Source: Escherichia phage UE-S1. Taken from it: 64,000 bases of DNA. The notes beneath the pieces are model-generated. The model was given only the letters and a program-made list of their open reading frames with translations, searched no databases and was not told the DNA's origin. The stretch is from sequence record ON568341.1. One strand, 5' to 3'. A program made the translations under genes and the position numbers. Shown here piece after piece: positions 8,290 to 61,358 of this stretch (within the stretch, counting starts at the first letter, position 1; the number at the start of each line of letters is the position of its first letter).

Positions 8290-8343
8290 TTGACATATGA
8301 GTGCGTTTTTCATATAATAATCTTATTGAAAACGCACTTTTTT
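8290..8343 (+). promoter_or_regulatory. promoter (TTGACA-N17-TATAAT) embedded in terminator-like hairpin
   Basis: TTGACA 8290-8295, TATAAT 8313-8318; GTGCGTTTT / AAAACGCAC arms flank the -10, then T-run. Confidence 0.5.
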
Positions 8344-8367
8344 AATGTACATATAAGGAACGGACAT

Positions 8368-32070: not shown

Positions 32071-32143
32071 GGTCAGTTAGTTCAGTTGGTAGAACGCTTC
32101 ACTTCATAATGAAGAACTTACAGGTTCAAATCCAGAACTGACC
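32071..32143 (+). tRNA. non-canonical tRNA-like element (8-nt anticodon loop, weak T-stem)
   Basis: Perfect acceptor GGTCAGT/ACTGACC and D-arm GTTC-AGTTGGTA-GAAC; anticodon arm CTTCA-CTTCATAA-TGAAG; T-stem ACAGG/CCAGA mispaired. Confidence 0.4.
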
Positions 32144-32151
32144 ACAAAAAA

Positions 32152-34878: not shown

Positions 34879-35263
<385 letters not shown>

Positions 35264-48686: not shown

Positions 48687-48693
48687 AGAACAA

Positions 48694-48722
48694 GGGTTGA
48701 CTTAGGTCAACCCTTTTTTTAT
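48694..48722 (+). terminator. rho-independent terminator (GGGTTGAC-ttag-GTCAACCC)
   Basis: Perfect 8-bp stem followed by TTTTTTTT; related to hairpins at 57163, 59958, 61299. Confidence 0.75.
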
Positions 48723-49255
48723 GGGACAAATTATAAAGTTATGATATACTTATTATGTACAATCCTGTTGAATGCAGAAATGCATATAAATGAGAACCTG
48801 ATCCTATCGAAAATGTAGATGGCAGATGAGCAGTTCAACAGTGCGATGAGCAGAAGAAACCCGTCAGATGTGGGCATAGTTTGAACCCCTCACGGCAATG
48901 CGGCTCAATAAAGAACCATGTTAGGATAGCTGATGGTTCCTTGATAGACATATAAGGATAACACCTTACGAATTATCTAAGGGAGAGTACTCAAATTTTG
49001 TACAAGAAAGTTGCGTCCAAAATTTGAGTACTCACATTAAGTATTTGATTGCATAGATACTTAATGAAGATACACTATGTTTAAAAGTGTAGACCGTCAT
49101 ATGAAACTGAAGTAGAGAGAAACAGGATGACCCGCTTTCGCACTCGTTATGAGTAATCTTCAATGCAATAGCTCTGATACCATCAGCGTCAAATTTCCCT
49201 CCGCAGTGGGGGGAAGAAAAATCACCTCCTCAAATCCCGTCAATATTAAAAGTCC
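48723..49255 (+). other. long non-coding region with structured elements (candidate ncRNA)
   Basis: About 530 bp without an ORF of 60 aa or more on either strand; locally GC-richer; 16-bp-stem hairpin at 48985-49033. Confidence 0.35.
48985..49033. repeat. inverted repeat: 16-bp stem (GAGTACTCAAATTTTG / CAAAATTTGAGTACTC), 17-nt loop
   Basis: Perfect complementarity between arms. Confidence 0.7.
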
Positions 49256-49284
49256 TTGACAGTTATTAATCATTCGCGTAGAAT
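49256..49284 (+). promoter_or_regulatory. sigma70-like promoter (TTGACA-N17-TAGAAT)
   Basis: Upstream of ORF 49349. Confidence 0.5.
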
Positions 49285-49348
49285 ACGTAGTATTAGAAGC
49301 GAACAGACATCTCGAAGAGATGGATGATTAACTATTGAGGAATTTCCA

Positions 49349-49558
49349 ATGAATTCAGTAATCTTTTTAGTAGTCGCTCTTTCAATTCAATCCGGTGTAC
49401 AAATTACCCCAATGAACTCAATGAACCAATGTTTTTCAGTACGTGACAGTACTTATGAACAAGTAAACCACATGTCACTTATGACAGTTAGTAAAGAAAG
49501 TATGTGGTGTTACAATAGTAATACTAACACAAAGCTTATTGTAGGACAAAATCAATGA
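49349..49558 (+). CDS. secreted/membrane mini-protein (69 aa)
   Basis: Hydrophobic N-terminus. Confidence 0.4.
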   Translation: MNSVIFLVVALSIQSGVQITPMNSMNQCFSVRDSTYEQVNHMSLMTVSKESMWCYNSNTNTKLIVGQNQ

Positions 49559-49785
49559 GTTATGGTGTTCGTTTTGAGATTCGTTCTATTATTATCAATG
49601 GCGAGAAACAAGCATCGTTGGATGGAGATATACGAGAAAAATATCTATCATGTATCCGTGCAAAATCTGAAGCAGATGCATTAGCACAAATGTATAGTTT
49701 TAACTTTTTTCATGGATACCATTTGGTACGAGTTATCGAAGTTACAAAAATAATTATAGATTGTAGCATGGAAGGATTAATGTAA
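49555..49785 (+). CDS. hypothetical protein (76 aa)
   Basis: Track ORF. Confidence 0.45.
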   Translation: MSYGVRFEIRSIIINGEKQASLDGDIREKYLSCIRAKSEADALAQMYSFNFFHGYHLVRVIEVTKIIIDCSMEGLM

Positions 49786-49786
49786 A

Positions 49787-50575
49787 ATGAGCACTATAGA
49801 TGAACTGATTCGACGGAATTCAAAATACTACAAACCATCAGAAATTGTAGGTAACATTACCAAATCAGAGTTTGGTCCAAATACTCGAAAACTAATTCAT
49901 GTAATGTCACGTGATGGCTTTAAATGTGATTGTTGTGGTGAATCCAATGTGGTATTCACTTTGCATAAGCACAGTACTAAAGACCGTTATAAATTCAGAC
50001 CTTATGTACTTAAAGGGAAACGCCTTGTACGCATGACGTTAGACCATAATGTACTGGACTGTCTTCAGGGTGGTAATGATAAAGAGAACATGACTGCATT
50101 ATGTGAAGATTGTAACGCATTACGCCAACATAAGTTTGCTGAGTACAGTGAGTTTAAACACTGGTATCATAATGCGGAACGTTCAATCGAGCCGGACGTT
50201 AACTACTGCTTCATTGAGTACATTAAGAATGCTAAAGATACATATATTCTTAAATCTATGGAACCAATTACCGTGTTTCCAATGAACCTATTCACTACAT
50301 TAAAGAATAGTTTTATGGTAGGTGATATTGATGCATTCAAGTATTTTGACAAAGGTGCAAAACATTTTGAAGTTCAATGTCTTAGTACTGCACTATGTGA
50401 ACTTATTAAAATTTACATAAAAGATTATTTGGGTATTGACAATGTACGCGTACCAGAGTATACTTTTTCTATTGATTTCGATTGTGAATCAATCAAAGAG
50501 TTTGGGATTCTTTTCAATAAACAAATAGAACTTGCAATTCAAAACGAAATCAAGTACTATAATACTAACATTTAA
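49787..50575 (+). CDS. HNH (His-Me finger) endonuclease
   Basis: CDCCG ... LDHNVLDCLQGGNDKENMTALCEDCNALR. Confidence 0.7.
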   Translation: MSTIDELIRRNSKYYKPSEIVGNITKSEFGPNTRKLIHVMSRDGFKCDCCGESNVVFTLHKHSTKDRYKFRPYVLKGKRLVRMTLDHNVLDCLQGGNDKENMTALCEDCNALRQHKFAEYSEFKHWYHNAERSIEPDVNYCFIEYIKNAKDTYILKSMEPITVFPMNLFTTLKNSFMVGDIDAFKYFDKGAKHFEVQCLSTALCELIKIYIKDYLGIDNVRVPEYTFSIDFDCESIKEFGILFNKQIELAIQNEIKYYNTNI

Positions 50576-50590
50576 TCAGAGGAAATTATT

Positions 50591-50773
50591 ATGCAAATCA
50601 TCATTCTTATCGTAGGTATCATTCTTGGTGTATATGGTCACTCCTGGATGAACGAGAAGTTCCCTAATACCCGTCCTGAGTATTGCAGTACTAATGTATT
50701 TCAGAATGGTGAGAAACCAAAGGAAAGTATTGGTAAAAAGCTGGACAAAGTACTTGATGTGATCAATGAATAA
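50591..50773 (+). CDS. small membrane protein (60 aa)
   Basis: Hydrophobic N-terminus. Confidence 0.4.
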   Translation: MQIIILIVGIILGVYGHSWMNEKFPNTRPEYCSTNVFQNGEKPKESIGKKLDKVLDVINE

Positions 50774-50984
50774 GGGCCATAAAATGTTTAAACCGAATTC
50801 AAATGTTGGTAAGAAAGTCCAATTACTTGAAGATGTATCCACTATGAGTGGAACCTTCACTAAAGGCCACATCATGACTATTATTGCCGAAACATCCCGT
50901 GGTTGGGACTTGGAAGATGCTGATGGTAATCGCATCCTTGAGGCTGGTTTTTATGGTCATCGTGAATATAAAATCATCGATTAA
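50766..50984 (+). CDS. hypothetical protein (72 aa); start uncertain
   Basis: Track ORF. Confidence 0.45.
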   Translation: MNKGHKMFKPNSNVGKKVQLLEDVSTMSGTFTKGHIMTIIAETSRGWDLEDADGNRILEAGFYGHREYKIID

Positions 50985-51080
50985 GGATATAAAATGATGT
51001 TAGAGGCTATCTTTGGTATTGTCAGTTTAGTCATCTGTGTTGGTTGGTTTGGGTATCTGATGATTTTTGGTGATTAATAC

Positions 51081-51108
51081 TTGACATAAGATATCAGTAC
51101 TGTATAAT
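51081..51108 (+). promoter_or_regulatory. sigma70-like promoter (TTGACA-N16-TATAAT) with CAGTACTG spacer
   Basis: TTGACATAAGATATCAGTACTGTATAATGTTTATATCAAA. Confidence 0.65.
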
Positions 51109-51153
51109 GTTTATATCAAACGAAATCCACTTTAACAAATGATAGGAAATATT

Positions 51154-51432
51154 ATGTCTTTTTCTAAAGAAGAACGTGACCTTATTAAAAAAGCAATCTG
51201 GTTTTATGCTAATGAAGGGAAGTGCGATGAAGAAAAAGCACGTGAACTGTGTAATATCTTTGAGAAGAAACAAGATCTGAAAGTGTATCGTATCCGTGAT
51301 TTGGATGAAGGGGATCGTATTGTCCTAGCTGAAACAAAAGAAGAAGCAGAACAAATCTTCACTGATAAAAACGAAAATCCACATTGGATGGAAGAAGTCT
51401 GTGATGTTAAAAAAGGTACTTATATCGATTGA
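51154..51432 (+). CDS. hypothetical protein (~92 aa)
   Basis: ATG 51154 after AGGAAA. Confidence 0.45.
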   Translation: MSFSKEERDLIKKAIWFYANEGKCDEEKARELCNIFEKKQDLKVYRIRDLDEGDRIVLAETKEEAEQIFTDKNENPHWMEEVCDVKKGTYID

Positions 51433-51457
51433 CAGAACTGAATAATAGCAGTATAAT
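51429..51457 (+). promoter_or_regulatory. sigma70-like promoter (TTGACA-N17-TATAAT)
   Basis: Followed by the same GTTTATATCAAAG box as promoter at 51081. Confidence 0.6.
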
Positions 51458-51549
51458 GTTTATATCAAAGGGAATGCAGTGAAAGGAAAGACAGCATAAT
51501 CGTACTCGTCACTGCGTTTCCAACCTATTAATTAAATGAGGAATTAACT

Positions 51550-51858
51550 ATGTTTCAAACTAACACTCAAGGTTTTGTAATCATAGATTTGAATCAAAAC
51601 AGCGGTTATTGGATGAAACCTACTGACGCATGTATGCAGTTTGATTTCTTAGGTTACAGAATTAGTGTAAGTACTGGTGCTTCTGTACTGAGAGGTGGTT
51701 GTATCGTTGAACATCTGGTAACTGATCCAGAAGGTCGTGAGTATGAAATCGCAGGTTCAGTACAAGATGCCATTATGTTTGTATGTCAGCGTGAAATGAA
51801 TGGTTCGAATTCAAATGCACTGACTCATGCTCTTTCTCAAGAAGTGGAGATTCGTTAA
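51550..51858 (+). CDS. hypothetical protein (102 aa)
   Basis: GAGGAAT RBS. Confidence 0.5.
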   Translation: MFQTNTQGFVIIDLNQNSGYWMKPTDACMQFDFLGYRISVSTGASVLRGGCIVEHLVTDPEGREYEIAGSVQDAIMFVCQREMNGSNSNALTHALSQEVEIR

Positions 51859-52109
51859 TGAAATACATTGTAGCAGTACTCGTCGCATTTTTACTCACTG
51901 CATGTGATGCTTCAACCAAAGAACGCACAAGTGATTTTGAACTCCCTACTGAATTAAAAGAAGCAGGATGTAAGATTTATCGTATGCAACAGGAAGGTGC
52001 TGGTGCAACGTTGTATACAGTTTATTGTCCTAATGCAAACACCAGTACTGGATACACTAGTGGAAAAACACGAATCAACACTTCAGTGATTAATGGAGTA
52101 CAACAATGA
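51858..52109 (+). CDS. lipoprotein (83 aa)
   Basis: Signal peptide with lipobox LLTAC. Confidence 0.5.
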   Translation: MKYIVAVLVAFLLTACDASTKERTSDFELPTELKEAGCKIYRMQQEGAGATLYTVYCPNANTSTGYTSGKTRINTSVINGVQQ

Positions 52110-52474
52110 GCCTTGATACAACCCGTGCAACAGATTTATTAACTCGTCTGAATGATGAAGAGTATCTTGCTGAAATAAAATACAAGCTTGATAAACTGGT
52201 TCGAAGTGCTGAAGTAATTGAAGTTGAAGGTCACTTACCAATGGATCAATTCCATACGTTCAACGAAGATATGGTTTATTATCCTAATGAAATTTGGATT
52301 GAGTGGCAACATTGGACTGGTAAAACACTACGTATTGAAGGGTATTGTGTGAAGTATGAACGTGATCCTGGTTATGTGACAAAAACTTTGTCAATTTGGT
52401 GTACAAAAACACATGAACTCGTTGAGGTGAATTTGAATTATATGAATGGCTTCCGTTGGGGTGATGTTAAATGA
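52106..52474 (+). CDS. hypothetical protein (122 aa)
   Basis: Track ORF. Confidence 0.5.
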   Translation: MSLDTTRATDLLTRLNDEEYLAEIKYKLDKLVRSAEVIEVEGHLPMDQFHTFNEDMVYYPNEIWIEWQHWTGKTLRIEGYCVKYERDPGYVTKTLSIWCTKTHELVEVNLNYMNGFRWGDVK

Positions 52475-52746
52475 TTAAAAAACTCTTGACGGTGTTCTTT
52501 GTATTCAGTATAATGTTTCTTACCGCATGTAATGACGATGGCACGTTAAGTGCAAAAGACTTAGCTCGATATGATTGTACATTCACAGGTAAGTCTTTTA
52601 TTAACGAATATGAAATATGTACACAAGCAGGACGTATCTGTGGTGGTTGGGAGAAACGTCAAGAGAAGTTGTATGTATACGAATGTCCCGGAAAACACAA
52701 TAAAGTTCTAAGTAAACAAAAACTTGTTTATGATAAGGTTGAATAA
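52471..52746 (+). CDS. lipoprotein (91 aa)
   Basis: Signal peptide with lipobox FLTAC. Confidence 0.5.
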   Translation: MIKKLLTVFFVFSIMFLTACNDDGTLSAKDLARYDCTFTGKSFINEYEICTQAGRICGGWEKRQEKLYVYECPGKHNKVLSKQKLVYDKVE

Positions 52747-52961
52747 TGACTACCAATGAAATGATGCAGGTTATTTGGGATAAAGGATGTGATATTAAAA
52801 TCACTAGCACTGATGTTCGTGTGTTCAAAACTGAATACCTAGAGTACTTGGACCTTGATACTTATAATAATATTGTATCAATTGAACACAAAGGTGCAGT
52901 ACTTGAAACTATTGATGTGGTTCTGAAGAAAGCAACAGACCTATTAGGTGCGTCAGTGTGA
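52746..52961 (+). CDS. hypothetical protein (71 aa)
   Basis: Track ORF. Confidence 0.45.
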   Translation: MTTNEMMQVIWDKGCDIKITSTDVRVFKTEYLEYLDLDTYNNIVSIEHKGAVLETIDVVLKKATDLLGASV

Positions 52962-53111
52962 ATAATAAAGAGTGGGAAGAATATAGAAAAAATGCCGAGA
53001 GTTTGATAAAGAACTAACTGGTACTATTAATGCAATAATGGGTGTATCTGTTTTTATTGCAGTTGTGTCATTATTTTCTGTTATTATTAATAAATTTTTA
53101 TAGGAACTCCC

Positions 53112-53309
53112 ATGTTTACTTTATATCTTGCAGTGGTTCTTACTAATGGTGACATAACTCGAACTATTGGTGAAGGTGTATATAAAACTCCTGAGCAATG
53201 TTACTCTGCTACACATTGGCCTCGTGATAGTGATGATACTCGTACCGAATTTAAATGCATGAAAGTAAAAGGTGATTTTGTTAACCTTAAAGTTATCGAG
53301 GCTAAATGA
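53112..53309 (+). CDS. hypothetical protein (65 aa)
   Basis: Track ORF. Confidence 0.4.
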   Translation: MFTLYLAVVLTNGDITRTIGEGVYKTPEQCYSATHWPRDSDDTRTEFKCMKVKGDFVNLKVIEAK

Positions 53310-53827
53310 TGAATATTAATGAGTTGTTAATATTATTGTTTAATCGTGAACGCCGCGATACAAGACCAATTGAATATCAAGATGTGATACGTATTGAAAC
53401 GGATTTCTGTTATGGTAAAACAACTCATGATCTTTTGAATCCATCTGGAAAACGCTATGCTGATGTTTGTTTTTCTGAAAGAAGTGATGGTTCAGAAATA
53501 ACAAGTACTGAAATTGTGTTTTATGATAGATCCTCGGCAGGTTCGTATGAAATAGAACTTATATATTGTCCTTGTTCAGAAACACACAATAAACATCAGA
53601 TATTATATGATGTTTATTCACCCCCAGGTATTGCTGAATATTTTGTTATTGATTACAGTACTGAAGAAAGTGTGTTTCAACAGAGCTTGATTCATAACTT
53701 CCAGTTGAATGATCCATTAGTACCGAAGATTTTCAAACTACTTGACACAATCGATGTTGATTTTGAATTTGTTATGTGCATTAGAACTTCTTTATTCAAT
53801 GAATTCATGGAACTTTTTAATATATGA
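53306..53827 (+). CDS. FQxS-motif paralog family member (173 aa)
   Basis: STEESVFQQSLIHNFQLND. Confidence 0.6.
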   Translation: MMNINELLILLFNRERRDTRPIEYQDVIRIETDFCYGKTTHDLLNPSGKRYADVCFSERSDGSEITSTEIVFYDRSSAGSYEIELIYCPCSETHNKHQILYDVYSPPGIAEYFVIDYSTEESVFQQSLIHNFQLNDPLVPKIFKLLDTIDVDFEFVMCIRTSLFNEFMELFNI

Positions 53828-54045
53828 ATAGATACTATGTTGTGTATGAACACGTTTCTGAATTTAATAACATACGAGGTTATTCCAGAGTTGTCACAAA
53901 GATGGATGTATTCATTCGTGCTCTTAGTGAAGTAGATGCACTGTTTAAATTGTTTGATGAAATTACAAAGTATAACACACCCAAAACACACCGCTATGTG
54001 GAAACTGTACATAGCATTATGCTAACTGAAAGTGATGAGGAATGA
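53824..54045 (+). CDS. hypothetical protein (73 aa)
   Basis: Track ORF. Confidence 0.4.
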   Translation: MNRYYVVYEHVSEFNNIRGYSRVVTKMDVFIRALSEVDALFKLFDEITKYNTPKTHRYVETVHSIMLTESDEE

Positions 54046-54048
54046 TAA

Positions 54049-54267
54049 ATGAATTTATATCTTGTTGAAGGATTGGTACAAGTCTATAAACTTGAATGTG
54101 AAGGGCAGCGTTTTTCACACGTAGAAGATTTTAAGTACGTTGTAAAGGCATCTTGTCAAAACGATGTTGAAATTCAAGTTCGAGAATCATTTCGTAATAA
54201 GAATGCAATTGGAAAATTCAAATATCAGCACTTACAATTCAAAGTATGGCCTAGCATAAATGACTAA
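54049..54267 (+). CDS. hypothetical protein (72 aa)
   Basis: Track ORF. Confidence 0.4.
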   Translation: MNLYLVEGLVQVYKLECEGQRFSHVEDFKYVVKASCQNDVEIQVRESFRNKNAIGKFKYQHLQFKVWPSIND

Positions 54268-54475
54268 GATGTGGTGGTGTCATGGTGTCTATAACGTGTA
54301 TGTAAATGGTCGATATAAAATGTCTAGTACCTATGCTAGACGTGTTCATGCGAAGAATAAAGTTGATGCGGCGTGTGATATCATTGAGTGGTATGCTGAG
54401 TTTAATACATTTGACTATATGTACGAAATAGTTACAATAAATGTTGTACAAATTGACACGTCTCTGATACAATAA
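54260..54475 (+). CDS. hypothetical protein (71 aa)
   Basis: Track ORF. Confidence 0.4.
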   Translation: MTKMWWCHGVYNVYVNGRYKMSSTYARRVHAKNKVDAACDIIEWYAEFNTFDYMYEIVTINVVQIDTSLIQ

Positions 54476-54508
54476 CTACATCAAAAAACAACTGCAACTG
54501 AGGATACT

Positions 54509-55171
54509 ATGTTAGTAAATCTTAATTTCATCACTTCTCCTGATTGGGCATTACGTGGTGTTTCTTTGAACTTTAAAGAAACTAATTTCGACTACATTGG
54601 GGATTGTACTTTAGTTAATGCTACATTTGATCCTCATCATCCTTTTTGGGCTAAGATTCATGATCCTAATGTAAACAATAGTGTATCTGTTATGACTATT
54701 GTACAGACGAAATATCCTGGCATTCTCGCAGGAGAACATCCTAAAGTTGCAATTAATCATTTCACTGATTATGATGTAGTAGATGAGTATCCAATGATTC
54801 ATAAAGATGGAAGTTTATACACATCTGAAGACGTTCGTGCTATCTTTAATAGTACTGATGATATTCTACCAAGTGGACGAACACGTCCTAAGTCTTATCT
54901 TATGCATTCATCTTATGGTGTAGCAGATACGCTTGAGCAGATTATGAAGAAGTACAAGAACCTAATTGAAGGTCCAGAAGAAGTTGTCATGTGCTATTAT
55001 CCAGTACTGAAATCAGACCAGCCAAAGAGTGGTGGGTGGCGTTGGCATAAAAACGGTGAGTACATTGGAAATAAACGTAGCAAAGAACGTTTTGAGTACT
55101 TGTATGATGAACCCGATATTGATGTTGTTTTGTGTTATAACTTCCTTAAGGTGAAAAAGAAATGTATCTAG
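54509..55171 (+). CDS. hypothetical protein (220 aa)
   Basis: GAGGA RBS. Confidence 0.55.
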   Translation: MLVNLNFITSPDWALRGVSLNFKETNFDYIGDCTLVNATFDPHHPFWAKIHDPNVNNSVSVMTIVQTKYPGILAGEHPKVAINHFTDYDVVDEYPMIHKDGSLYTSEDVRAIFNSTDDILPSGRTRPKSYLMHSSYGVADTLEQIMKKYKNLIEGPEEVVMCYYPVLKSDQPKSGGWRWHKNGEYIGNKRSKERFEYLYDEPDIDVVLCYNFLKVKKKCI

Positions 55172-55398
55172 TATTGAGTATTGTAACTGCACTATTGTTT
55201 ATGTTTTACCCTACACTAGTAGCACTAGTTACAAGACGAACTGTTGGAGATATCACTACAGTATTCTTGTTAAACGTGGTTCTGGCACTAGTGTCTATTA
55301 AAATCCCAGTAACCCCCACTGTTATTGATACGGTAACAGTATTTCTCTTTGTTTTCAGTTATCTTATGCTTATCGATGAGAAACCTGTTGACAAATAA
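55162..55398 (+). CDS. small polytopic membrane protein (78 aa)
   Basis: Hydrophobic throughout. Confidence 0.45.
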   Translation: MYLVLSIVTALLFMFYPTLVALVTRRTVGDITTVFLLNVVLALVSIKIPVTPTVIDTVTVFLFVFSYLMLIDEKPVDK

Positions 55399-55415
55399 TC
55401 TTAGTGCTGTATAAT
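55388..55415 (+). promoter_or_regulatory. sigma70-like promoter (TTGACA-N16-TATAAT)
   Basis: Consensus hexamers with TG at -15. Confidence 0.6.
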
Positions 55416-55457
55416 AATTCTTGAAATGTAAAAAACTTAAACATGAGGGTATAAAAT

Positions 55458-55778
55458 ATGTTATCAGTATTGTTTTCAATTCCATCTTTAATTCTAATTT
55501 GGATTATTGTGTATGAATGTTTTATTGTAGATGATACGGAGAAAAAAGAATTCAATGAGTTATTCATGCTTGATACGCCAGTTGTCCGCATTTTCTATTC
55601 TGTAGTTATCGTTTCAGTACTTGCATGGATTGTAAGTTTTATCTTCCCAATGGGTGCAATCATTAATGTATTGAATTTGGTTGAAAACACTATTGCTATT
55701 CTATGGCTTATCAAAGCGTGGTATGTAGGAAATGTTAATATTTGGATTGATATTGTTAAATCTAAATTTACAAAATAA
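55458..55778 (+). CDS. membrane protein (106 aa)
   Basis: Hydrophobic segments; GAGGG RBS. Confidence 0.45.
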   Translation: MLSVLFSIPSLILIWIIVYECFIVDDTEKKEFNELFMLDTPVVRIFYSVVIVSVLAWIVSFIFPMGAIINVLNLVENTIAILWLIKAWYVGNVNIWIDIVKSKFTK

Positions 55779-55870
55779 GATGTAATAAGTAATAGTGAAA
55801 CAACCTAGATATGATTAAATACTTCTGTACATACATATAGTACAGAAGTATTTCTTAGTAGAGGTTTGTT

Positions 55871-56230
55871 ATGAATACTTATATAAAATTAATAGCACTT
55901 ACTTGCTTGTTATTGTCTTTTTTTAGTTACGGTTCGTCATCTGAAACACAATGTCGTAGTACTAATGGAACGATGTATTCATTAACTAACGATCCGGGAA
56001 ATGGTAAAAATATTGTTATTGATGGTGAAACTTATCGTTTTAAAGTACAAAGCACTATTGGTAATAAAAAGATAACGACTTATATTAATGATTCTGGAAC
56101 ACTTGCAAATGTTATATTAATTGTTAATCCAAAAACAGGTCGTGGTGATATCTATATAGTAATTTATTTAGATTCAGCACAACAACGAGAATTAGATATA
56201 GATGAATTAAATCTTCATTGCAAAATATAG
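55871..56230 (+). CDS. secreted protein with signal peptide (119 aa); paralog of 56615
   Basis: Signal peptide; shared IDG(E/Q)xYxF core. Confidence 0.5.
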   Translation: MNTYIKLIALTCLLLSFFSYGSSSETQCRSTNGTMYSLTNDPGNGKNIVIDGETYRFKVQSTIGNKKITTYINDSGTLANVILIVNPKTGRGDIYIVIYLDSAQQRELDIDELNLHCKI

Positions 56231-56240
56231 GGTATAAAAT

Positions 56241-56618
56241 ATGATAGATTCTATTGTAATTGGGTTGATAAGTATTCCATTTATTTTGTCTTTTATAATT
56301 TCCATATGCATGATTGTGTATTTTATATTTGCTGGAATGTATTTTGTTTTAACAAACAAGTATATTTTTATTTCTAAGCTTGATTCAATATTTGCATGTG
56401 AAACTTTAGCTTACAACTTATGGATAATCTGCTCTAGTATTATGGGGTTGACTTACCTTTTATATAAATTTGATTTTATTAATGTAAATATTGTATATAT
56501 TAGTGCTGGATTAGCATTATATCCTGCTACATGGTACTTGATTTATGTTGTGGACATATGGTATAGTACTTACAAAGAATACCAGTGTAAGAAATCATTA
56601 AAAGTTGAGAGGAATTGA
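56241..56618 (+). CDS. polytopic membrane protein (125 aa)
   Basis: Hydrophobic segments. Confidence 0.5.
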   Translation: MIDSIVIGLISIPFILSFIISICMIVYFIFAGMYFVLTNKYIFISKLDSIFACETLAYNLWIICSSIMGLTYLLYKFDFINVNIVYISAGLALYPATWYLIYVVDIWYSTYKEYQCKKSLKVERN

Positions 56619-56971
56619 TTATGAAAATTATTTTATTTTTTGTATCTATGTTATTGAGTGGATTTGTATATGCTGAACCACTTGAAGGTTTAGTTTGCAC
56701 AGACGGACACATCAAACATATCTATCAAGGTGATAGTTATGATCATGATATTGTTTATATTGATGGTCAACAATATAACTTTGTTAAAGAGCATACTATT
56801 GGCGACATTAGCTTCAATGAGTTTTCAAATGATGAAGATCCTAACGCCTTGGCATTTATGGAAGTTGATTTGTATGAAGATAGTAATGGTACACAATATG
56901 CTAAACTTGTTATGATGCGTCGTGGTGCTAAAGAAACAAGTTTCGGTGGTTTATGTAAATATAAGGATTAA
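56615..56971 (+). CDS. secreted protein with signal peptide (118 aa); paralog of 55871
   Basis: MIMKIILFFVSMLLSGFVYA|EP. Confidence 0.5.
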   Translation: MIMKIILFFVSMLLSGFVYAEPLEGLVCTDGHIKHIYQGDSYDHDIVYIDGQQYNFVKEHTIGDISFNEFSNDEDPNALAFMEVDLYEDSNGTQYAKLVMMRRGAKETSFGGLCKYKD

Positions 56972-56976
56972 TTATT

Positions 56977-57168
56977 ATGCTGATTTATAAATGTGATAAT
57001 ATTCGTGTTCTACAACATCCTTATCTTCAAATCTTTGATGTGCAGATGTTCATGGAAGGTGATAATCCGAGAACCTATGGACGTAAGTATGATTATTTCA
57101 CGGTCAAGCAGTGCAACAACATTGATGAAGTACGACGATTAGTACATGAACTCCAAAACAAAGGTTGA
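56977..57168 (+). CDS. hypothetical protein (63 aa)
   Basis: Track ORF. Confidence 0.4.
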   Translation: MLIYKCDNIRVLQHPYLQIFDVQMFMEGDNPRTYGRKYDYFTVKQCNNIDEVRRLVHELQNKG

Positions 57169-57187
57169 CTTCGGTCAGCCTTTTTTG
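57161..57187 (+). terminator. terminator GGTTGAC-ttcg-GTCAGCC (copy 1) with embedded promoter hexamers
   Basis: Hairpin then TTTTTTG; TTGACT in the 5' arm lies 17 nt upstream of TTATAAT. Confidence 0.75.
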
Positions 57188-57222
57188 TTATAATTATTTT
57201 ATATTCTAATGGATTTTAAATT

Positions 57223-57663
57223 ATGTTAGTATATCGTTTTGAACTTAAATTTAGTTACATTGAACCTGATTTGAAACCAGCAACAAATGTTGGTCCATTT
57301 GCACGGTATTCTTCAAAATACAGTACTAAAAATGGTTTTGACCGTTTGTATATGTCTACGCCTACGCAGTTCCAACCTGAACCAACTGATGATGGAATCT
57401 ATTCAATCAAATATGGATGGGCATTTGGCTGTCAAAGTTTGAATGATTTGTTTCGGTTCTTTACTATGGACTTGGGTAAATTACATCGTGCTGGGTTTGC
57501 TATTTCCGTATATGATGTACCTGATAATCATGTGGATATTGGTCGTAATCAGGTTCAGTACTATTGCGGTAGTGCAACATTGGTTCGTATCATGTCAGTT
57601 AAGGATGCAAAGGTGGAGTACAGTCAAAGTAAAAGAGTAATACATGAGGCTATATATGGATAA
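57223..57663 (+). CDS. hypothetical protein (146 aa)
   Basis: Track ORF. Confidence 0.5.
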   Translation: MLVYRFELKFSYIEPDLKPATNVGPFARYSSKYSTKNGFDRLYMSTPTQFQPEPTDDGIYSIKYGWAFGCQSLNDLFRFFTMDLGKLHRAGFAISVYDVPDNHVDIGRNQVQYYCGSATLVRIMSVKDAKVEYSQSKRVIHEAIYG

Positions 57664-58000
57664 GACACAAATAGAATTGAAAAAATTTGTATCATTCTAT
57701 CTACCAAATGATCCACGTACTTCACAAAAAGATTTTGAATATTATAATATTCTAAGTAAACAGTTAATGAGAAAGTTTCAACAGTGTTTAAGTATATTCA
57801 ATACCGATGGTAGACGTAGATACCGAATCATTTCAATGAATGATGAAAACGCAAACTACTTTGATTATGATGTTGTTTTTAGAGCATATAATGATGACCG
57901 AATTAAATTAAATTATGATCAAATAATATTTGATCTAAGTGCTATATCTGTTATAATCACGCATATCGCCGAGATTAATGGTTTTAAAGAGTGGTATTGA
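57656..58000 (+). CDS. hypothetical protein (~114 aa)
   Basis: ATG 57656. Confidence 0.45.
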   Translation: MDKTQIELKKFVSFYLPNDPRTSQKDFEYYNILSKQLMRKFQQCLSIFNTDGRRRYRIISMNDENANYFDYDVVFRAYNDDRIKLNYDQIIFDLSAISVIITHIAEINGFKEWY

Positions 58001-58014
58001 TTAGAGGACAACAT

Positions 58015-58281
58015 ATGAAGCTTAAATTGCAATATAACGGATTTACTTTACGTAATGATACTGAGTTTGTAAATCGTTCACCTGGTGCTGAACTTTTTTT
58101 GCGAGAGATGAACATTCCTTTCATTGTCACCACTGTTGGGGATCGTGAAGTTTTACAATACGCAGAGCATCCTATTATTGATGTTCCTTGGTATTCTGAA
58201 CATATGTACATGGATATGGCACGTCGCTACAACTGTAAGTTCATAGTAGAAGGTGATAAAATTACAGTACAATTTAAATGA
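58015..58281 (+). CDS. hypothetical protein (~88 aa)
   Basis: ATG 58015 after AGAGGA. Confidence 0.45.
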   Translation: MKLKLQYNGFTLRNDTEFVNRSPGAELFLREMNIPFIVTTVGDREVLQYAEHPIIDVPWYSEHMYMDMARRYNCKFIVEGDKITVQFK

Positions 58282-58349
58282 TGTGAATTGAAATGAACAG
58301 TACTACACTCAATTTAAGCATCATCGCAAATGTAGAAATATAATATAAA

Positions 58350-58380
58350 AAGGGAAATCATATATGGTTCCCCCTTTTTC
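58350..58380 (+). terminator. rho-independent terminator (weak)
   Basis: GGGAA...TTCCCCC followed by TTTTTC. Confidence 0.4.
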
Positions 58381-58421
58381 TTATTACGTACAATTAAGTA
58401 CATATATTAATTGAGGAAATT

Positions 58422-58994
58422 ATGAATCGTAAAGGCCGTTTTAAGGTATCAAAGAAGAATAAGAGTTCTAGGTTTAAACCTATAGTGTTAACAGTTAAAG
58501 CTAAAGAAGAATTAACTGCACTTAGTAAAAAGATCATTTCATCTAAGATCAAAATATCATATATAAATTCAGTAAAATATCAAAATGTAAAACCACGAGA
58601 TCAACTTATTTCACTTATATTTGAACGTAATGATTTTGAGATATCAGTAGATGATTATAGAGCCTATAATGCTGGCTTCATTAATGTTACTTGTAATAAA
58701 GAACTAACTGCATTAGAAAATTTGTCATGTATAATAAATCTAGATAAAGGTGTTGTGAAATACCATTTTGTACATTTCACTAATATCAATAATGGAATGG
58801 GCGTAGAATCCAGACCTATAGTGCCTACGTGTGATGTTACTAAATTAGCAAAACTCAATGATGAAGAATATTTTCAAGAAAGCATTGTAACTGAGCATTT
58901 AGATGATATAATAGCAACTTACAAAGAATGCATATGGGTTTTGAATGCCATTAAGCCTAAATTGTGTTTAATGAATATTGTTCGTGATTTATGA
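58422..58994 (+). CDS. FQxS-motif paralog family member (190 aa)
   Basis: NDEEYFQESIVTEHLDD; GAGGA RBS. Confidence 0.6.
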   Translation: MNRKGRFKVSKKNKSSRFKPIVLTVKAKEELTALSKKIISSKIKISYINSVKYQNVKPRDQLISLIFERNDFEISVDDYRAYNAGFINVTCNKELTALENLSCIINLDKGVVKYHFVHFTNINNGMGVESRPIVPTCDVTKLAKLNDEEYFQESIVTEHLDDIIATYKECIWVLNAIKPKLCLMNIVRDL

Positions 58995-59007
58995 ATGGGA
59001 AATTAAA

Positions 59008-59451
59008 ATGGGTTGGGTAAATGTAAATAGTATTGAACTTAACGAACAAGATATTTTTGCATTTGTGAATTTGACCAATAATACAGTACTGAAAGGGCGT
59101 TTGTTCAGAGCGAGTGATGGATATAAATGGATCTCTTTGATGGATGATTGTGGTGTGATTTATAATGCAATGCAATTGCCACAGTGGGTATATAGTAATA
59201 CTTCTGACGATGTTCTTGCCGCTGTTATGCGTGAGTTTGAAAAACTACCAGGTGGTGATATGAAAAACAAAGTTTTTAATGCAGAACGTCATAATTATAC
59301 AGCACAGCAATTGGAATCACTTGCCATTGCTGCATATCAAGCTGCTATTAAGAAGCCAGAGTGTGTTATTCTTAAGTACGTCCCAGACTTAAAACTCACG
59401 TTGGAAGATATGGATGCATTCATTTTTACATCTGAACTTGAACAGTACTGA
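59008..59451 (+). CDS. hypothetical protein (~147 aa)
   Basis: ATG 59008. Confidence 0.5.
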   Translation: MGWVNVNSIELNEQDIFAFVNLTNNTVLKGRLFRASDGYKWISLMDDCGVIYNAMQLPQWVYSNTSDDVLAAVMREFEKLPGGDMKNKVFNAERHNYTAQQLESLAIAAYQAAIKKPECVILKYVPDLKLTLEDMDAFIFTSELEQY

Positions 59452-59565
59452 TTTAACTTTGGGACAAACTTTTCTATAATGATATAATTTTCTTGTCTGA
59501 TTATTTAAATGACATGTTGAAGTATAAATATTATTGTAAAGTTATCTCTTATAGGAGTTATAAAA

Positions 59566-59949
59566 ATGGTTGATAAATGGAATAAGAAAGATCCATCCCA
59601 TGATGTTGATATTTCTGATCTAGATGATGCACATAAGCATAAGTATCTAGATTCACTAGGTCTTCTCAAACCGGACCAAAGTCTTGCACACGAACGCCCA
59701 TCACGTGAAAAAGCATTCAGTCTAGAATCACTTGGTCATGAGCTAAATCGTGTGTTTGAAGAACACCCAATTTATGTACGTGATATTATTGAGAAACTTA
59801 AAGTAACTCCTAAAGAGCACTTTAAAGCAACTGTACATTCTGCATTCCGTGCATTGCATGATTCTCTCAAGAAAACTCATAATCTTCGTAAAATTCATGA
59901 TGAAATTGTGAATGCAATCGAAAGTGAAAAGCATAAGTTCAAGAAGTAA
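59566..59949 (+). CDS. hypothetical protein (127 aa); SLGLL-motif paralog
   Basis: AGGAG RBS; HKYLDSLGLLKPDQ; KLKVTPKEHFKATV. Confidence 0.5.
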   Translation: MVDKWNKKDPSHDVDISDLDDAHKHKYLDSLGLLKPDQSLAHERPSREKAFSLESLGHELNRVFEEHPIYVRDIIEKLKVTPKEHFKATVHSAFRALHDSLKKTHNLRKIHDEIVNAIESEKHKFKK

Positions 59950-59957
59950 TAGAAAAT

Positions 59958-59984
59958 GGGTTGACTTCGGTCAGCCTTTTTTTA
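59958..59984 (+). terminator. terminator GGGTTGAC-ttcg-GTCAGCC (copy 2)
   Basis: Identical hairpin followed by TTTTTTT. Confidence 0.75.
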
Positions 59985-60014
59985 TATACTATAAATATAG
60001 TCATAGAGAAAAAC

Positions 60015-61289
60015 ATGAAATCTATGGAGAGAAATCAAATGCCAAGTAATTTTACTGATAAAAATGGTGGTAACATGGCAGGTCACTCGGATAAATGGAG
60101 TGAACGCAACCGCCGACCAAATAGTTACCAAGCAGGTCAAGGTTCTCGTGGCTCCAGAAACCAAGGAACTGGTCTAGCTGGTAAAGCAAATGCTGAACCT
60201 GGTGAAGTTAAAAGTACTGAGAACATGACTGAGCTAGAAAAACTACGCTACGTTAATTCATTGGGACTTCTTAATGCTACACAAAAACAACGTCTAGCTG
60301 ATATGGAACGTGAAGAAAAAGAAAAGACTGCTCCTGCGAAAGAAGAACCAAAACAAGAAGCACCAAAGGCGGTTAACCCTGTCAAAGAACTGTCTGATAA
60401 GTTAGGTAAGATCTTTGCAAATAAACCCCAACTTATTCAAGGTATTGTCAAAGAATTGCAATCTGTACCTAAAGAAGAATTAAAAGCCAAAGCACAAGCT
60501 GTTCTGGATGCAATGAAAGGAAATACCAGTACTGAACCAACCGAAGTATTCAGTACTATTATGCGTGCACTGGAAGGTAAACAACAAGGTGAAGAACGTG
60601 GTGATGAAGTAAGTCTTGAACGTGTTCTTAAAACATTTGATAGTATTGGGAAAGAAGACCGTGTTAATGCACAACAGGTTAAAAATGTACTAGCAAAATT
60701 GGAAAACCGTCTAGAAGGTAAAGATGATAAGATTAAATTGGTATCCGATGCAGTTGAAAATGCACTTAAATCTTATGTACAAGGTGAAAAGAGTCGTTTT
60801 GTAACTGCTATGGATGCTGCATTCAATACTATGAAAAAGTACGAAGCGGATCATGGAGAGAAGGTAACACGAGATGGTTATTTAATGCGTGATGATGAAG
60901 AAGGTGCAGTGGAACAGAATGATGCTCATTCTGACGAAGATATTGATGACATGGAAGCAGAACTGTCACAGGACCGCCAAATGACTGAAAAATCTCACAA
61001 TGAACTACAGAAATTAATGCAGTGGGTTGCAGAAGTAGGTGAAAAGGCTGGTGAAGATAAGAAGAGTATCAACCGAAACCTAAGTTGGATTAAAGATAAG
61101 GTTGGTAATAACGCTCGTAAACTACAAAAAGCATGGACTGATGTAGTGAATGGTGCGGTAGATATTGATGTTGAGTCTGGTGAAGCATATGATTATGCAT
61201 TGACTACACTTGATGATTCTTTTCGTGACTACGAAAAAGGAAACGTTACTCCTTGGGAAAAGGACATAATGAGTAAATATGGTAAATGA
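60015..61289 (+). CDS. K/E-rich protein, SLGLL-motif paralog (~425 aa); start uncertain (60015-60039)
   Basis: LRYVNSLGLLNATQKQ; QSVPKEELKAKAQAV; track start at 59961 lies inside the terminator. Confidence 0.5.
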   Translation: MKSMERNQMPSNFTDKNGGNMAGHSDKWSERNRRPNSYQAGQGSRGSRNQGTGLAGKANAEPGEVKSTENMTELEKLRYVNSLGLLNATQKQRLADMEREEKEKTAPAKEEPKQEAPKAVNPVKELSDKLGKIFANKPQLIQGIVKELQSVPKEELKAKAQAVLDAMKGNTSTEPTEVFSTIMRALEGKQQGEERGDEVSLERVLKTFDSIGKEDRVNAQQVKNVLAKLENRLEGKDDKIKLVSDAVENALKSYVQGEKSRFVTAMDAAFNTMKKYEADHGEKVTRDGYLMRDDEEGAVEQNDAHSDEDIDDMEAELSQDRQMTEKSHNELQKLMQWVAEVGEKAGEDKKSINRNLSWIKDKVGNNARKLQKAWTDVVNGAVDIDVESGEAYDYALTTLDDSFRDYEKGNVTPWEKDIMSKYGK

Positions 61290-61298
61290 TAACAAAAA

Positions 61299-61323
61299 GG
61301 TTGACTTCGGTCAGCCTTTTTTG
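61299..61323 (+). terminator. terminator GGTTGAC-ttcg-GTCAGCC (copy 3)
   Basis: Identical hairpin followed by TTTTTTG. Confidence 0.75.
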
Positions 61324-61358
61324 TTATCATAGCTTTCCTAACTACAAAGGATGACGTG

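What the first reader, a model, noticed from the sequence alone, without database searches (positions are those of the whole stretch)
48694..61323. Four near-identical terminator hairpins that embed promoter hexamers
The hairpin GGTTGAC-TTCG-GTCAGCC followed by a T-run occurs three times in 4.2 kb (57161, 59958, 61299), with a close variant GGGTTGAC-TTAG-GTCAACCC at 48694. In each, the 5' arm contains TTGACT and a -10-like hexamer lies about 17 nt downstream past the T-run (TTATAAT at 57161, TATATA at 59958, TTATCA at 61299). A similar promoter-in-hairpin arrangement is at 8290-8343. Identical terminators are uncommon and suggest a duplicated cassette boundary or coupled termination/re-initiation modules.
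Basis: seen in the sequence. Interest (0 to 1): 0.5.

Follow-up and report, generated by a model that had tools for sequence, protein, structure and literature searches.

The report
Phage terminator-promoter cassettes, PeSL type
The repeated hairpins are real: in a jumbo coliphage they are short terminators, most with a promoter built into and just after the stem, which separate small early-gene cassettes and mark where relatives have gained or lost genes, a kind of element already described as PeSLs in T4-like phages.

Summary
Observation confirmed. GGTTGACTTCGGTCAGCC occurs exactly at 57163, 59959 and 61299, with a variant at 48695, all on the + strand (0 expected by chance). The window is a RaK2-like jumbo coliphage (Asteriusvirus, about 90% identical to ph0011).

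Each hairpin is a strand-specific cUUCGg stem-loop plus T-run directly after a stop codon, so it reads as an intrinsic terminator.

- **57163 and 61299:** TTGACT in the 5' arm, an 18-nt spacer made of the 3' arm and T-run, then TGnTATAAT or TGnTATCAT, and an ATG about 43 nt after the stem.
- **59959:** followed by a T4-type late promoter (TATAAATA) before a virion gene.
- **48695:** terminator only.

Across phage copies, 82 of 111 have a -10 at the correct spacing, against 4.4% of random positions and 2 of 18 bacterial copies.

Relatives carry extra gene cassettes bounded on both sides by the module exactly where the window has one copy (59959, 61299).

The same layout occurs in the published PeSLs of Vibrio phage nt-1. 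Verdict: a new member of a known kind, supported by sequence only. No transcript mapping exists.

In passing: an unannotated 470-nt structured RNA at 48785-49259.

The parts
48692..48715 (+). Hairpin AAGGGTTGAC-TTAG-GTCAACCCTT plus T7, 6 nt after the stop codon of the phage sigma-factor gene (47733-48686). Terminator only.
   Evidence: -16 kcal/mol. There is no -10 (TATGGG). Orthologues in G17, 121Q, ph0011 and SD-15 have a compensatory TTGGC/GCCAA stem.
57160..57183 (+). Hairpin AAAGGTTGAC-TTCG-GTCAGCCTTT. The stop codon TGA (57166-57168) of ORF 56977-57168 lies inside TTGAC.
   Evidence: -13.9 kcal/mol, z -5.0. G17 annotates the orthologue as an ARNOLD terminator.
57165..57194 (+). Predicted sigma-70-type promoter: -35 TTGACT (57165-57170), an 18-nt spacer made of loop, 3' arm and T-run, TG at 57186-57187, and -10 TATAAT (57189-57194). 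The ATG of the next gene is at 57223.
   Evidence: 11 of 12 matches, TG present. Identical in all five relatives.
59958..59977 (+). Hairpin GGGTTGAC-TTCG-GTCAGCCT plus T7, 9 nt after the stop of ORF 59566-59949.
   Evidence: -14.1 kcal/mol. It is the overlap of two BLAST HSPs against G17, 121Q and SD-15, which is an indel junction.
59985..59997 (+). Weak -10-like TATACT (59985-59990) overlapping TATAAATA (59990-59997), a T4-type late-promoter motif. The ATG at 60015 starts a virion structural protein homologue (121Q gp201).
   Evidence: TATAAATA occurs only 3 times on the + strand of the window, and 2 of those precede the two virion-protein genes. Annotation.
61294..61321 (+). Hairpin AAAAAGGTTGAC-TTCG-GTCAGCCTTTTT, 5 nt after the stop of ORF ending at 61289. 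The palindrome extends to 61287-61331.
   Evidence: the 45-nt extended hairpin folds at -27.8 kcal/mol. It is an indel junction against G17, 121Q and SD-15.
61301..61330 (+). Predicted promoter: TTGACT (61301-61306), 18-nt spacer, TG, and -10 TATCAT (61325-61330). SD AAAGGA follows, and the ATG at 61359 starts a T7 gp0.7-like protein kinase gene.
   Evidence: 10 of 12 matches, TG present. Orthologues have TGtTATGAT. Kinase annotation.
8290..8344 (+). Second composite layout: TTGACA (8290-8295), 17-nt spacer, TATAAT (8313-8318), with a stem (8300-8310 / 8328-8338) enclosing the -10, then T6 (8339-8344).
   Evidence: (-13.3 kcal/mol, z -4.3).

Best explanation
The hairpins are composite regulatory cassettes of the PeSL kind (promoter-early stem-loop), located in the early, hyperplastic region of a RaK2-like jumbo coliphage.

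**Terminator.** Read as + strand RNA, each is a short G+C-clamped stem closed by a cUUCGg tetraloop and followed by a U-run, directly after a stop codon. This is the form of an intrinsic terminator for transcripts coming from upstream.

**Promoter.** Read as DNA, the 5' arm and first loop base spell the -35 hexamer TTGACT. The 3' arm and T-run form an 18-nt spacer, and a TG-extended -10 follows. RNA polymerase can therefore start about 7 nt further on, downstream of the hairpin, so the new transcript does not contain its own terminator. A 20-25 nt leader with a Shine-Dalgarno sequence leads to the next gene.

**What each window copy is:**
- 57163 and 61299: full terminator plus sigma-70-type promoter.
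- 59959: terminator plus T4-type late promoter.
- 48695: terminator alone.

**Recombination.** Because the roughly 25-50 nt unit is repeated in direct orientation, it also acts as a homology patch. Recombination between copies deletes or inserts the gene cassette between them.

**Shown here:** the sequence anatomy, strand-specific folding, conservation, statistical coupling of the hairpin to a -10, and indel junctions falling inside the module.

**Inferred:** actual termination, actual initiation, which sigma factor is used, and the recombination mechanism.
For: - **Repeat family.** Exact repeats, with 0 expected by chance.
- **RNA structure.** + strand RNA folds at -14 to -16 kcal/mol (z about -5); the reverse strand is much weaker because of a G.U pair.
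- **Existing annotation.** G17's record annotates the same hairpins as ARNOLD terminators. The distance from hairpin end to start codon is 40-43 nt for seven of its ten terminator annotations.
- **Conservation.** All orthologous copies in five relatives keep TTGAC. The 3' arm varies only by A/G changes that preserve G.U pairing. The one promoter-less copy instead shows a compensatory TTGGC/GCCAA swap.
- **Coupling to a -10.** A -10 (at least 5 of 6, with A2 and T6) at spacer 16-19 follows 82 of 111 distinct phage copies, against 4.4% of random positions. 71 of 111 have TGn. The same hairpin in bacterial chromosomes has a -10 in 2 of 18 cases (Fisher p = 3e-9).
- **Indel junctions.** The window modules at 59944-59987 and 61282-61322 are each the overlap of two HSPs. 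The relatives' extra cassettes are flanked by two modules. Across six genomes, 34 of 84 pairwise indels have a module at a junction, although only about 1-2% of the sequence lies within 30 nt of a module.
- **Published precedent.** PeSL phage nt-1 has the same layout, AAAAGGGTTGAC-acat-GTCAGCCCTTTTtgTATTAT. The class is defined in PMC2839356 and PMC4122927. In RB49/phi1, reporter assays showed terminator and promoter activity and inverse PCR detected mini-circles.
- **Promoter context.** The window has 37 sigma-70-like promoter matches on the + strand and 2 on the - strand, so host-type promoters are in use here.
Against: - There are no transcript-end data for any Asteriusvirus, so all function is inferred from sequence.
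- The 18-nt spacer is one longer than the optimum, and the -35 is TTGACT rather than TTGACA.
- Two of the four window copies do not have a good sigma-70 -10.
- The copies are homologous repeats, so the -10 statistics are not based on independent samples.
- Many indels in the region do not involve the module: about 10 of roughly 15 distinct sites.
- Promoter regions in the window as a whole are not more structured than random windows (p = 0.36). Hairpin-promoter fusion is a property of this family and a few other sites, not of all promoters.
- The phage encodes its own RpoD-like sigma factor (47733-48686), so the polymerase form that uses these sites is unknown.
Confidence: 0.72

Rival explanations
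1. They are ordinary intrinsic terminators and nothing more. TTGAC in the stem and the -10-like hexamers are incidental in AT-rich DNA, and the identity between copies reflects local duplication.
For: - This is the correct reading for the 48695 copy: no -10, and TTGAC is not conserved in orthologues.
- The same hairpin occurs in bacterial chromosomes as a plain terminator without a -10.
- G17 annotators called them terminators only.
Against: - A -10 follows at fixed spacing in 74% of phage copies, against 4.4% of random positions and 11% of bacterial copies.
- The TGn extension is present in 64% of copies.
- TTGAC is invariant in promoter-bearing orthologues, whereas the 3' arm varies.
- The distance to the ATG is constant.
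- The identical architecture was validated experimentally as a class in PeSLs.
Confidence: 0.15
2. The inverted repeat is a DNA operator. A dimeric phage regulator binds GGTTGAC...GTCAACC over the -35 to shut off early promoters, and the RNA hairpin is irrelevant.
For: The palindrome overlaps the -35 of a predicted promoter and is repeated at several promoters in one region.
Against: - The commonest form, GTCAGCC, is not a DNA palindrome. It pairs only as G.U in + strand RNA (62 of 71 TTCG-loop copies).
- The loop is the RNA-specific cUUCGg tetraloop.
- A T-run always follows, and the element always sits just after a stop codon.
- A compensatory stem swap occurs at 48695.
- The same hairpin occurs in unrelated phages (Brochothrix A9, Stenotrophomonas RAS14, Vibrio, Aeromonas) that would not share a regulator.
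Confidence: 0.04
3. The hairpins are mainly RNA processing or stability elements, such as 3'-end protectors or RNase targets that segment a long early transcript, rather than sites of termination and re-initiation.
For: - Stable 3' stem-loops protect mRNA from exonucleases (established knowledge).
- The phage encodes a T7 gp0.7-like kinase. The 121Q record describes its homologue as acting positively on RNase III and negatively on RNase E.
Against: - Stems of 8-12 bp are too short for RNase III (established knowledge).
- The U-run and the coupled -10 are not needed for a stability element.
- This role is not exclusive of the main explanation, since a terminator hairpin also stabilises the 3' end.
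Confidence: 0.07
4. The module is a small selfish or mobile repeat, MITE-like or spread as PeSL mini-circles. It spreads within and between phage genomes, and its regulatory activity is secondary.
For: - Near-identical 20-48 nt modules occur in Asteriusvirus, RaK2, Eneladusvirus, Vibrio schizo-T4 phages, Aeromonas 65.2, Cronobacter CR3, Stenotrophomonas RAS14 and Brochothrix A9.
- Cassettes bounded by two modules are present or absent among relatives.
- Mini-circles were reported for PeSLs.
Against: - No transposase, target-site duplication or terminal inverted repeats lie beyond the hairpin itself.
- Orthologous copies are stably inherited at the same sites in all five relatives.
- The shared part across distant phages is almost fully dictated by function (-35, tetraloop, complement, G/C clamp, T-run, -10), so convergence is plausible.
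Confidence: 0.1

Closest known systems
PeSLs of the nt-1/KVP40 type (Comeau, Arbiol & Krisch 2014, PMC4122927)
   Same: - The anatomy matches base for base. An A-run and GGG clamp lead into a 5' arm carrying the -35 (TTGAC or TTGCG). Then come a short loop, a 3' arm ending AGCCC with the same U.G wobble, a T-run used as the spacer, a TG-extended -10, a short leader with SD, and the ATG (nt-1 copies read).
- The elements are repeated between small ORFs of unknown function in a hyperplastic region.
- Indels between close relatives are bounded by the motif.
   Different: - The host phage is a RaK2-like jumbo phage (Asteriusvirus), not a T4-like Straboviridae phage.
- The loop is the UUCG tetraloop and the -35 is TTGACT, with an 18-nt spacer.
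- One copy is coupled to a late promoter (TATAAATA) and one has no promoter.
- I found no published description for this phage group.
PeSLs of the RB49/phi1 type (Arbiol et al. 2010, PMC2839356)
   Same: - It is a composite of a near-consensus sigma-70 promoter and a terminator stem-loop.
- The window site 8290-8344 has the typical RB49 layout, with the stem-loop overlapping the -10.
- For this class, promoter and terminator activity and recombination into mini-circles were shown experimentally.
   Different: In RB49 the stem-loop lies mostly between the boxes or over the -10 and is polyG/polyC. In the window family it encloses the -35. No experiments exist for the window's phage.
Ordinary Rho-independent terminators (as annotated by ARNOLD in phage G17, MK327931)
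   Same: There is a G+C-rich stem, a 4-nt loop and a U-run immediately after a stop codon, on the transcribed strand.
   Different: Ordinary terminators are individually different, as are the other terminators in this window, and are not coupled to a -10 at fixed spacing. Bacterial copies of the very same hairpin have a -10 in only 2 of 18 cases.
T4-type late promoters (TATAAATA; the motif ATAAATA was predicted before structural genes in RaK2-like phages CBB and GAP32, PMC5259590)
   Same: The motif at 59990-59997, and a second at 59523-59530, lie directly upstream of the two genes whose homologues are annotated as virion structural proteins.
   Different: This applies only to the copy at 59959, where the embedded TTGACT is probably irrelevant.

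Membership tests
PeSL (promoter-early stem-loop) composite cassettes | Sigma-70-like -35 and -10 boxes at 16-18 nt spacing | tested here: met
   By sequence only:
- 57165: TTGACT-18-TATAAT with TG
- 61301: TTGACT-18-TATCAT with TG

The feature is weak at 59961 (TATACT, no TG) and absent at 48697. It therefore holds for 2 of 4 copies, possibly 3.
PeSL (promoter-early stem-loop) composite cassettes | A stable stem-loop, able to terminate or attenuate upstream transcription, that overlaps or adjoins the promoter | tested here: met
   The folds give -13.9 to -16 kcal/mol (z about -5), are followed by 6-7 U, and are strand-specific. Actual termination was not measured.
PeSL (promoter-early stem-loop) composite cassettes | An AT-rich tract upstream of the -35, and a Shine-Dalgarno sequence plus start codon at the 3' end of the motif | tested here: met
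   A-rich tracts (AAAACAAA, AGAAAAT, AACAAAAA) precede the stems. The ATGs at 57223, 60015 and 61359 lie 39-43 nt after the stem core. Spacing is the same in G17.
PeSL (promoter-early stem-loop) composite cassettes | A repeated, conserved motif clustered in a hyperplastic region of small genes of unknown function | tested here: met
   There are 4 copies in the window and 7-9 copies within 25-32 kb in each relative, lying between mostly hypothetical ORFs. BLAST finds 8-11 places per Asteriusvirus genome.
PeSL (promoter-early stem-loop) composite cassettes | Insertions, deletions and replacements between close relatives have their junctions in the motif | tested here: met
   The window modules at 59959 and 61299 correspond to two modules flanking extra cassettes in G17, 121Q and SD-15. 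34 of 84 pairwise indels have a module at a junction, although only about 1-2% of the sequence lies within 30 nt of a module. Not every indel involves a module.
PeSL (promoter-early stem-loop) composite cassettes | Demonstrated promoter and terminator activity, and formation of cassette mini-circles | not testable with these tools
   This was shown for RB49/phi1 only. No transcriptome or reporter data were found for Asteriusvirus.
Intrinsic (Rho-independent) terminator | A G+C-rich stem of 5-12 bp, a loop of 3-8 nt, and a run of at least 5 U directly after the stem, on the sense strand downstream of a stop codon | tested here: met
   The stops are at 48684-48686, 57166-57168, 59947-59949 and 61287-61289.
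T4-type late promoter (copy 59959 only) | TATAAATA about 10 nt upstream of the start site of a late (virion) gene, with no -35 requirement | tested here: inconclusive
   The motif is present at 59990-59997 and is conserved in relatives. It is under-represented in the window (4 occurrences against 13 expected), and 2 of the 3 + strand copies precede virion-protein homologues. Late timing and a gp55-like factor were not tested here.

The most novel reading that the evidence does not exclude
The module GGGTTGAC-UUCG-GUCAGCCC-U-run-TGnTATAAT may be a near-universal minimal terminator-promoter part. It could have been reached repeatedly by convergence, or passed horizontally, among unrelated large virulent phages: RaK2-like jumbo phages, T4-like Vibrio and Aeromonas phages, Vequintavirinae, a Stenotrophomonas jumbo phage, and the Gram-positive Brochothrix phage A9.

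Its conserved single U.G wobble would be functional. It keeps the sense RNA hairpin but breaks the DNA palindrome, so that no mirror-image -35 (TTGACC becomes CTGACC) fires antisense into the upstream gene. At 61287-61331 that one base is the only difference between the sense and the antisense promoter.

A further possibility is that the geometry lets the polymerase released at the U-run re-initiate on the spot.
Probability: 0.2. Interest if true: 0.55.

Novelty: new member of a known kind. Interest (0 to 1): 0.3.

Why it matters
- **Reach of the mechanism.** It extends PeSL-type modular shuffling from T4-like phages to RaK2-like jumbo phages. These genomes are about 80% genes of unknown function, and their early regions differ between isolates by whole cassettes.
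- **Annotation.** It gives a concrete rule for these genomes. Hairpins of this family mark both a transcript end and, usually, a transcript start.
- **Comparative genomics.** It explains several gene-content differences between phage-therapy candidates such as phAPEC6, PBECO4 and fEgEco12.
- **Synthetic biology.** The 45-nt unit is a compact, naturally tested insulator part.
- **Limit.** The finding does not reveal a new principle.

Tried and rejected
- **Rfam at gathering thresholds on the whole window:** tRNAs only, nothing at the hairpins.
- **Are all sigma-70-like promoters in the window hairpin-associated?** No. The MFE of 37 promoter windows against 600 random windows gave p = 0.36. Only this family and a few sites (7073, 8290, 23391, 46459, 61997) combine the two.
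- **DNA operator hypothesis:** rejected on the G.U asymmetry and the cross-phage distribution.
- **Sigma-70 promoter at 59959:** considered. I prefer the late promoter TATAAATA.
- **Literature:** no description of these elements in RaK2, fEgEco12, CBB, PA5oct or phAPEC6 papers, and no Asteriusvirus transcriptome.
- **More copies of the 48785-49259 RNA in the window:** an nhmmer profile found none.
- **Concerted evolution between paralogous modules:** not examined quantitatively. By eye, orthologous copies resemble each other more than paralogous ones do.
- **Not used:** protein-level tools, which were not needed for this question.

Full report
**1. Observation**

The 18-mer GGTTGACTTCGGTCAGCC occurs exactly three times, at 57163, 59959 and 61299. 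A two-mismatch variant, GGTTGACTTAGGTCAACC, is at 48695. All are on the + strand, and no dinucleotide shuffle gave any match.

Each copy is flanked by an A-rich tract and followed by 6-7 T. Alignment of the four copies shows that identity is confined to the hairpin and T-run, about 25 nt. The flanks differ.

Other terminator-like hairpins in the 64 kb all have different stems, so this is a genuine repeat family.

**2. Context**

The window is a RaK2-like jumbo coliphage of the genus Asteriusvirus. The best match is ph0011 at 90%; 121Q, PBECO4, phAPEC6 and G17 match at 87-88%.

All genes here are on the + strand. Most are small and of unknown function. The window carries eight tRNA genes.

It has 37 sigma-70-like promoter matches on the + strand against 2 on the - strand, many of them perfect TTGACA-17-TATAAT. 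This is the early, host-polymerase-dependent region.

| Hairpin | Follows | Precedes |
|---|---|---|
| 48695 | phage RpoD-like sigma-factor gene | an ORF-free stretch (see section 10) |
| 57163 | a 63-aa ORF whose TGA stop lies inside TTGAC | a 146-aa ORF |
| 59959 | a virion-protein homologue | a second virion-protein homologue |
| 61299 | that second virion-protein homologue | a T7 gp0.7-like protein kinase gene |

Annotations are taken from relatives.

**3. Terminator reading**

The + strand RNA folds into an 8-12 bp stem with a cUUCGg tetraloop at -13.9 to -16 kcal/mol (z about -5). The reverse strand of the three identical copies reaches only -5.2 to -10.5, because a U.G pair becomes C.A. 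The structure is therefore RNA-level and oriented with transcription.

The G17 GenBank record already annotates the orthologous hairpins as ARNOLD terminators.

At the post-sigma site, four relatives have TTGGC...GCCAA where the window and fEgEco12 have TTGAC...GTCAA. This is a compensatory double change.

**4. Promoter reading**

- At 57165 the scan gives TTGACT-18-TATAAT with TG.
- At 61301 it gives TTGACT-18-TATCAT with TG.
- At 59961 it gives TTGACT-18-TATACT without TG.
- At 48697 it gives nothing usable.

In relatives, further copies downstream of the window's end share about 50 nt: GGGTTGACTTCGGTCAGCCCTTTTTGCTATAATCATTTCATCAAC...GAGG...ATG. The distance from hairpin to start codon is 40-43 nt for seven of G17's ten terminator annotations.

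I pooled all distinct copies from the window, five relatives, RaK2, nt-1 and IMG/VR hits. Of these, 82 of 111 have a -10 (at least 5 of 6, with A2 and T6) at spacer 16-19, against 4.4% of random positions. TGn is present in 71.

The same 22-mer in 185,579 bacterial species genomes occurs 18 times, and only 2 of those have such a -10. One of the two is identical to the copy in phage RAS14 (p = 3e-9). The hairpin alone can therefore be a plain terminator. In phages it is systematically coupled to a -10. These counts are not phylogenetically independent.

**5. The copy at 59959**

TATAAATA, the T4 late-promoter motif, lies at 59990-59997, 17 nt before the ATG of a virion-protein homologue. The motif is under-represented in the window, with 4 occurrences against 13 expected.

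Two of its three + strand occurrences (59523 and 59990) precede the two virion-protein genes. A similar ATAAATA motif was predicted before structural genes in the related phages CBB and GAP32 (PMC5259590).

I therefore read this copy as terminator plus late promoter.

**6. Cassette boundaries**

In BLAST against G17, 121Q and SD-15_S21, the window module at 59944-59987 is the overlap of two HSPs. Its left flank continues into the relatives' module upstream of a 37-aa ORF (gp200). Its right flank continues from the module downstream of that ORF.

The same holds at 61282-61322 for a three-gene, 1.04-kb cassette (gp202-204). The crossover lies inside the hairpin/T-run.

Beyond the window's end, relatives differ by further cassettes bounded by modules:
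- a 3.8-kb insert in ph0011
- an HNH gene in fEgEco12
- the stretch between endonuclease V and gp223

Overall, 34 of 84 pairwise indels have a module at a junction, although only 1-2% of the sequence lies within 30 nt of a module. About 10 of roughly 15 distinct indel sites do not involve a module.

One other indel (51130-51450, gp173) is bounded instead by two perfect sigma-70 promoters, at 51081 and 51429.

**7. Comparison with what is known**

Composite promoter/terminator motifs that sit between ORFans in hyperplastic regions and mediate modular shuffling were described as PeSLs. They were found first in RB49/phi1, with reporter evidence for both activities and inverse-PCR evidence for mini-circles. 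They were later found in T4/PST and KVP40/nt-1 (PMC2839356, PMC4122927).

I read the nt-1 genome directly. Its PeSLs are AAAAGGGTTGAC-acat-GTCAGCCCTTTTtgTATTAT and AAAAGGGTTGCG-cta-TGCAGCCCTTTTTTgTATTAT. That is the same -35-in-stem, T-run-as-spacer layout, with the same U.G wobble.

The window's 8290 site has the RB49-type layout, with the stem over the -10.

All sequence-level defining features of PeSLs are met. The functional ones cannot be tested here.

I found no description of such elements for RaK2-like phages. This makes it a new member of a known kind.

**8. Wider distribution**

The 48-nt module finds 327 phage records. The exact hairpin with a -10 occurs in:
- RaK2 (11 copies in 40 kb)
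- Eneladusvirus and Mimasvirus contigs
- Vibrio phage D525, where it is followed by TATAAATA
- Aeromonas 65.2
- Cronobacter CR3
- Stenotrophomonas RAS14
- Brochothrix A9, which has a Gram-positive host

In IMG/VR the wobble form GTCAGCC outnumbers the perfect form GTCAACC by 43 matches to 4.

Among 104 distinct sense copies, 76 of 89 wobble forms have a -10, against 7 of 15 perfect forms (p = 0.002). The window follows the same pattern: three wobble copies with promoters and one perfect copy without.

A possible reason is that the wobble removes the mirror-image -35 on the other strand. At 61287-61331 the element is a 45-nt palindrome in which CTGACC against TTGACT is the only asymmetry. This is an inference, and the samples are not independent.

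**9. Verdict**

The class is already known from T4-like phages.

Interest is modest. It is useful for annotating and comparing jumbo phages, but it is not a new principle.

**10. Noticed in passing**

The 630-nt ORF-free stretch after the 48695 terminator holds a strongly conserved structured RNA at 48785-49259. It is more conserved than the neighbouring genes.

It is present in 61 RaK2-like phage records, at 3-5 places per genome. RNAalifold on 12 diverse copies predicts 86 pairs, 48 of them with compensatory double changes. It has no Rfam match at E up to 1.

Its function is unknown, and it deserves its own follow-up.

Noticed in passing
window 48785-49259 (+), within the ORF-free gap 48716-49348: This is an unannotated structured RNA of about 470 nt.
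- It is more conserved than the flanking genes.
- Homologues occur in 61 RaK2-like jumbo-phage records (Asteriusvirus, Eneladusvirus, Mimasvirus, Salmonella 7t3/Munch, Klebsiella fENko-Kae01), at 3-5 places per genome.
- RNAalifold on 12 diverse copies predicts 86 pairs, 48 of them with compensatory double changes, plus long invariant single-stranded blocks.
- It has no Rfam 15 hit at E up to 1, contains no ORF of 50 aa or more, and has only one copy in the window.
- A TG-extended -10 (TGATATACT, 48741-48749) precedes it.
- The related phage PA5oct has four highly expressed ncRNAs known from RNA-seq (PMC7318152). Homology to those was not tested.
   Followed up: partly
window 51081-51457: A 321-bp segment carrying one 97-aa ORF (51139-51432, gp173 homologue) is absent from ph0011 and fEgEco12. 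It is bounded by two perfect sigma-70 promoters with shared flanks: TTGACA-16-TATAATgtttatatcaaa at 51081 and TTGACA-17-TATAATgtttatatcaaa at 51429. Repeated promoters without hairpins therefore also mark indel junctions.
   Followed up: partly
window 59523-59530 and 59990-59997 (+): TATAAATA, the T4-type late-promoter motif, is under-represented in the window (4 occurrences against 13 expected). Two of its three + strand copies lie directly upstream of the two genes whose homologues are annotated as virion structural proteins. These look like an island of late genes inside an early region.
   Followed up: partly
window 7073, 8290, 23391, 46459, 61997 (+): Other sigma-70-like promoters have a stem-loop enclosing the -10 or lying between the boxes, which is the RB49-type PeSL layout. 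An example is 46459: TTGACA...GGAGTACAATGTACTCC. As a group, however, promoters in the window are not more structured than random windows.
   Followed up: partly
window 61287-61331: The 61299 module is part of a 45-nt near-perfect palindrome, ATGATAACAAAAAGGTTGAC-TTCG-GTCAGCCTTTTTTGTTATCAT (-27.8 kcal/mol). The upstream stop codons TGATAA mirror the -10 TTATCA. On the - strand this reads CTGACC-17-TATCAT with TG, so a single base (the G.U wobble) distinguishes the sense promoter from the antisense one.
   Followed up: partly
L011/L027/L033 (Brochothrix phage A9), L010 (Stenotrophomonas phage RAS14), L007 (Vibrio phage D525), L009 (Aeromonas phage 65.2), L044-L061 (bacterial genomes): The identical 20-nt hairpin GGGTTGACTTCGGTCAGCCC recurs in unrelated phages, including one with a Gram-positive host, nearly always with a -10 at 17-18 nt. 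It also recurs 18 times in bacterial species genomes (Acinetobacter, Exiguobacterium, Vibrio, Bacteroidetes), mostly without a -10. L048, labelled Bdellovibrio, is identical in sequence to phage RAS14.
   Followed up: partly
window 32071-32145 and 34918-35009 (+): Two odd tRNA calls were seen. ARAGORN reports one tRNA with a 4-base anticodon (tcat, amino acid unassigned) and a tRNA-Ser with anticodon ACT. Both also score as tRNA in Rfam, at 51.8 and 49.9 bits.
   Followed up: no
window 49787-50575 (+): An HNH endonuclease homologue, as annotated in 121Q, ph0011 and fEgEco12, lies about 500 nt downstream of the structured RNA. Further HNH or endonuclease genes sit in module-bounded cassettes in relatives (fEgEco12 g570, 121Q gp221).
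   Followed up: no
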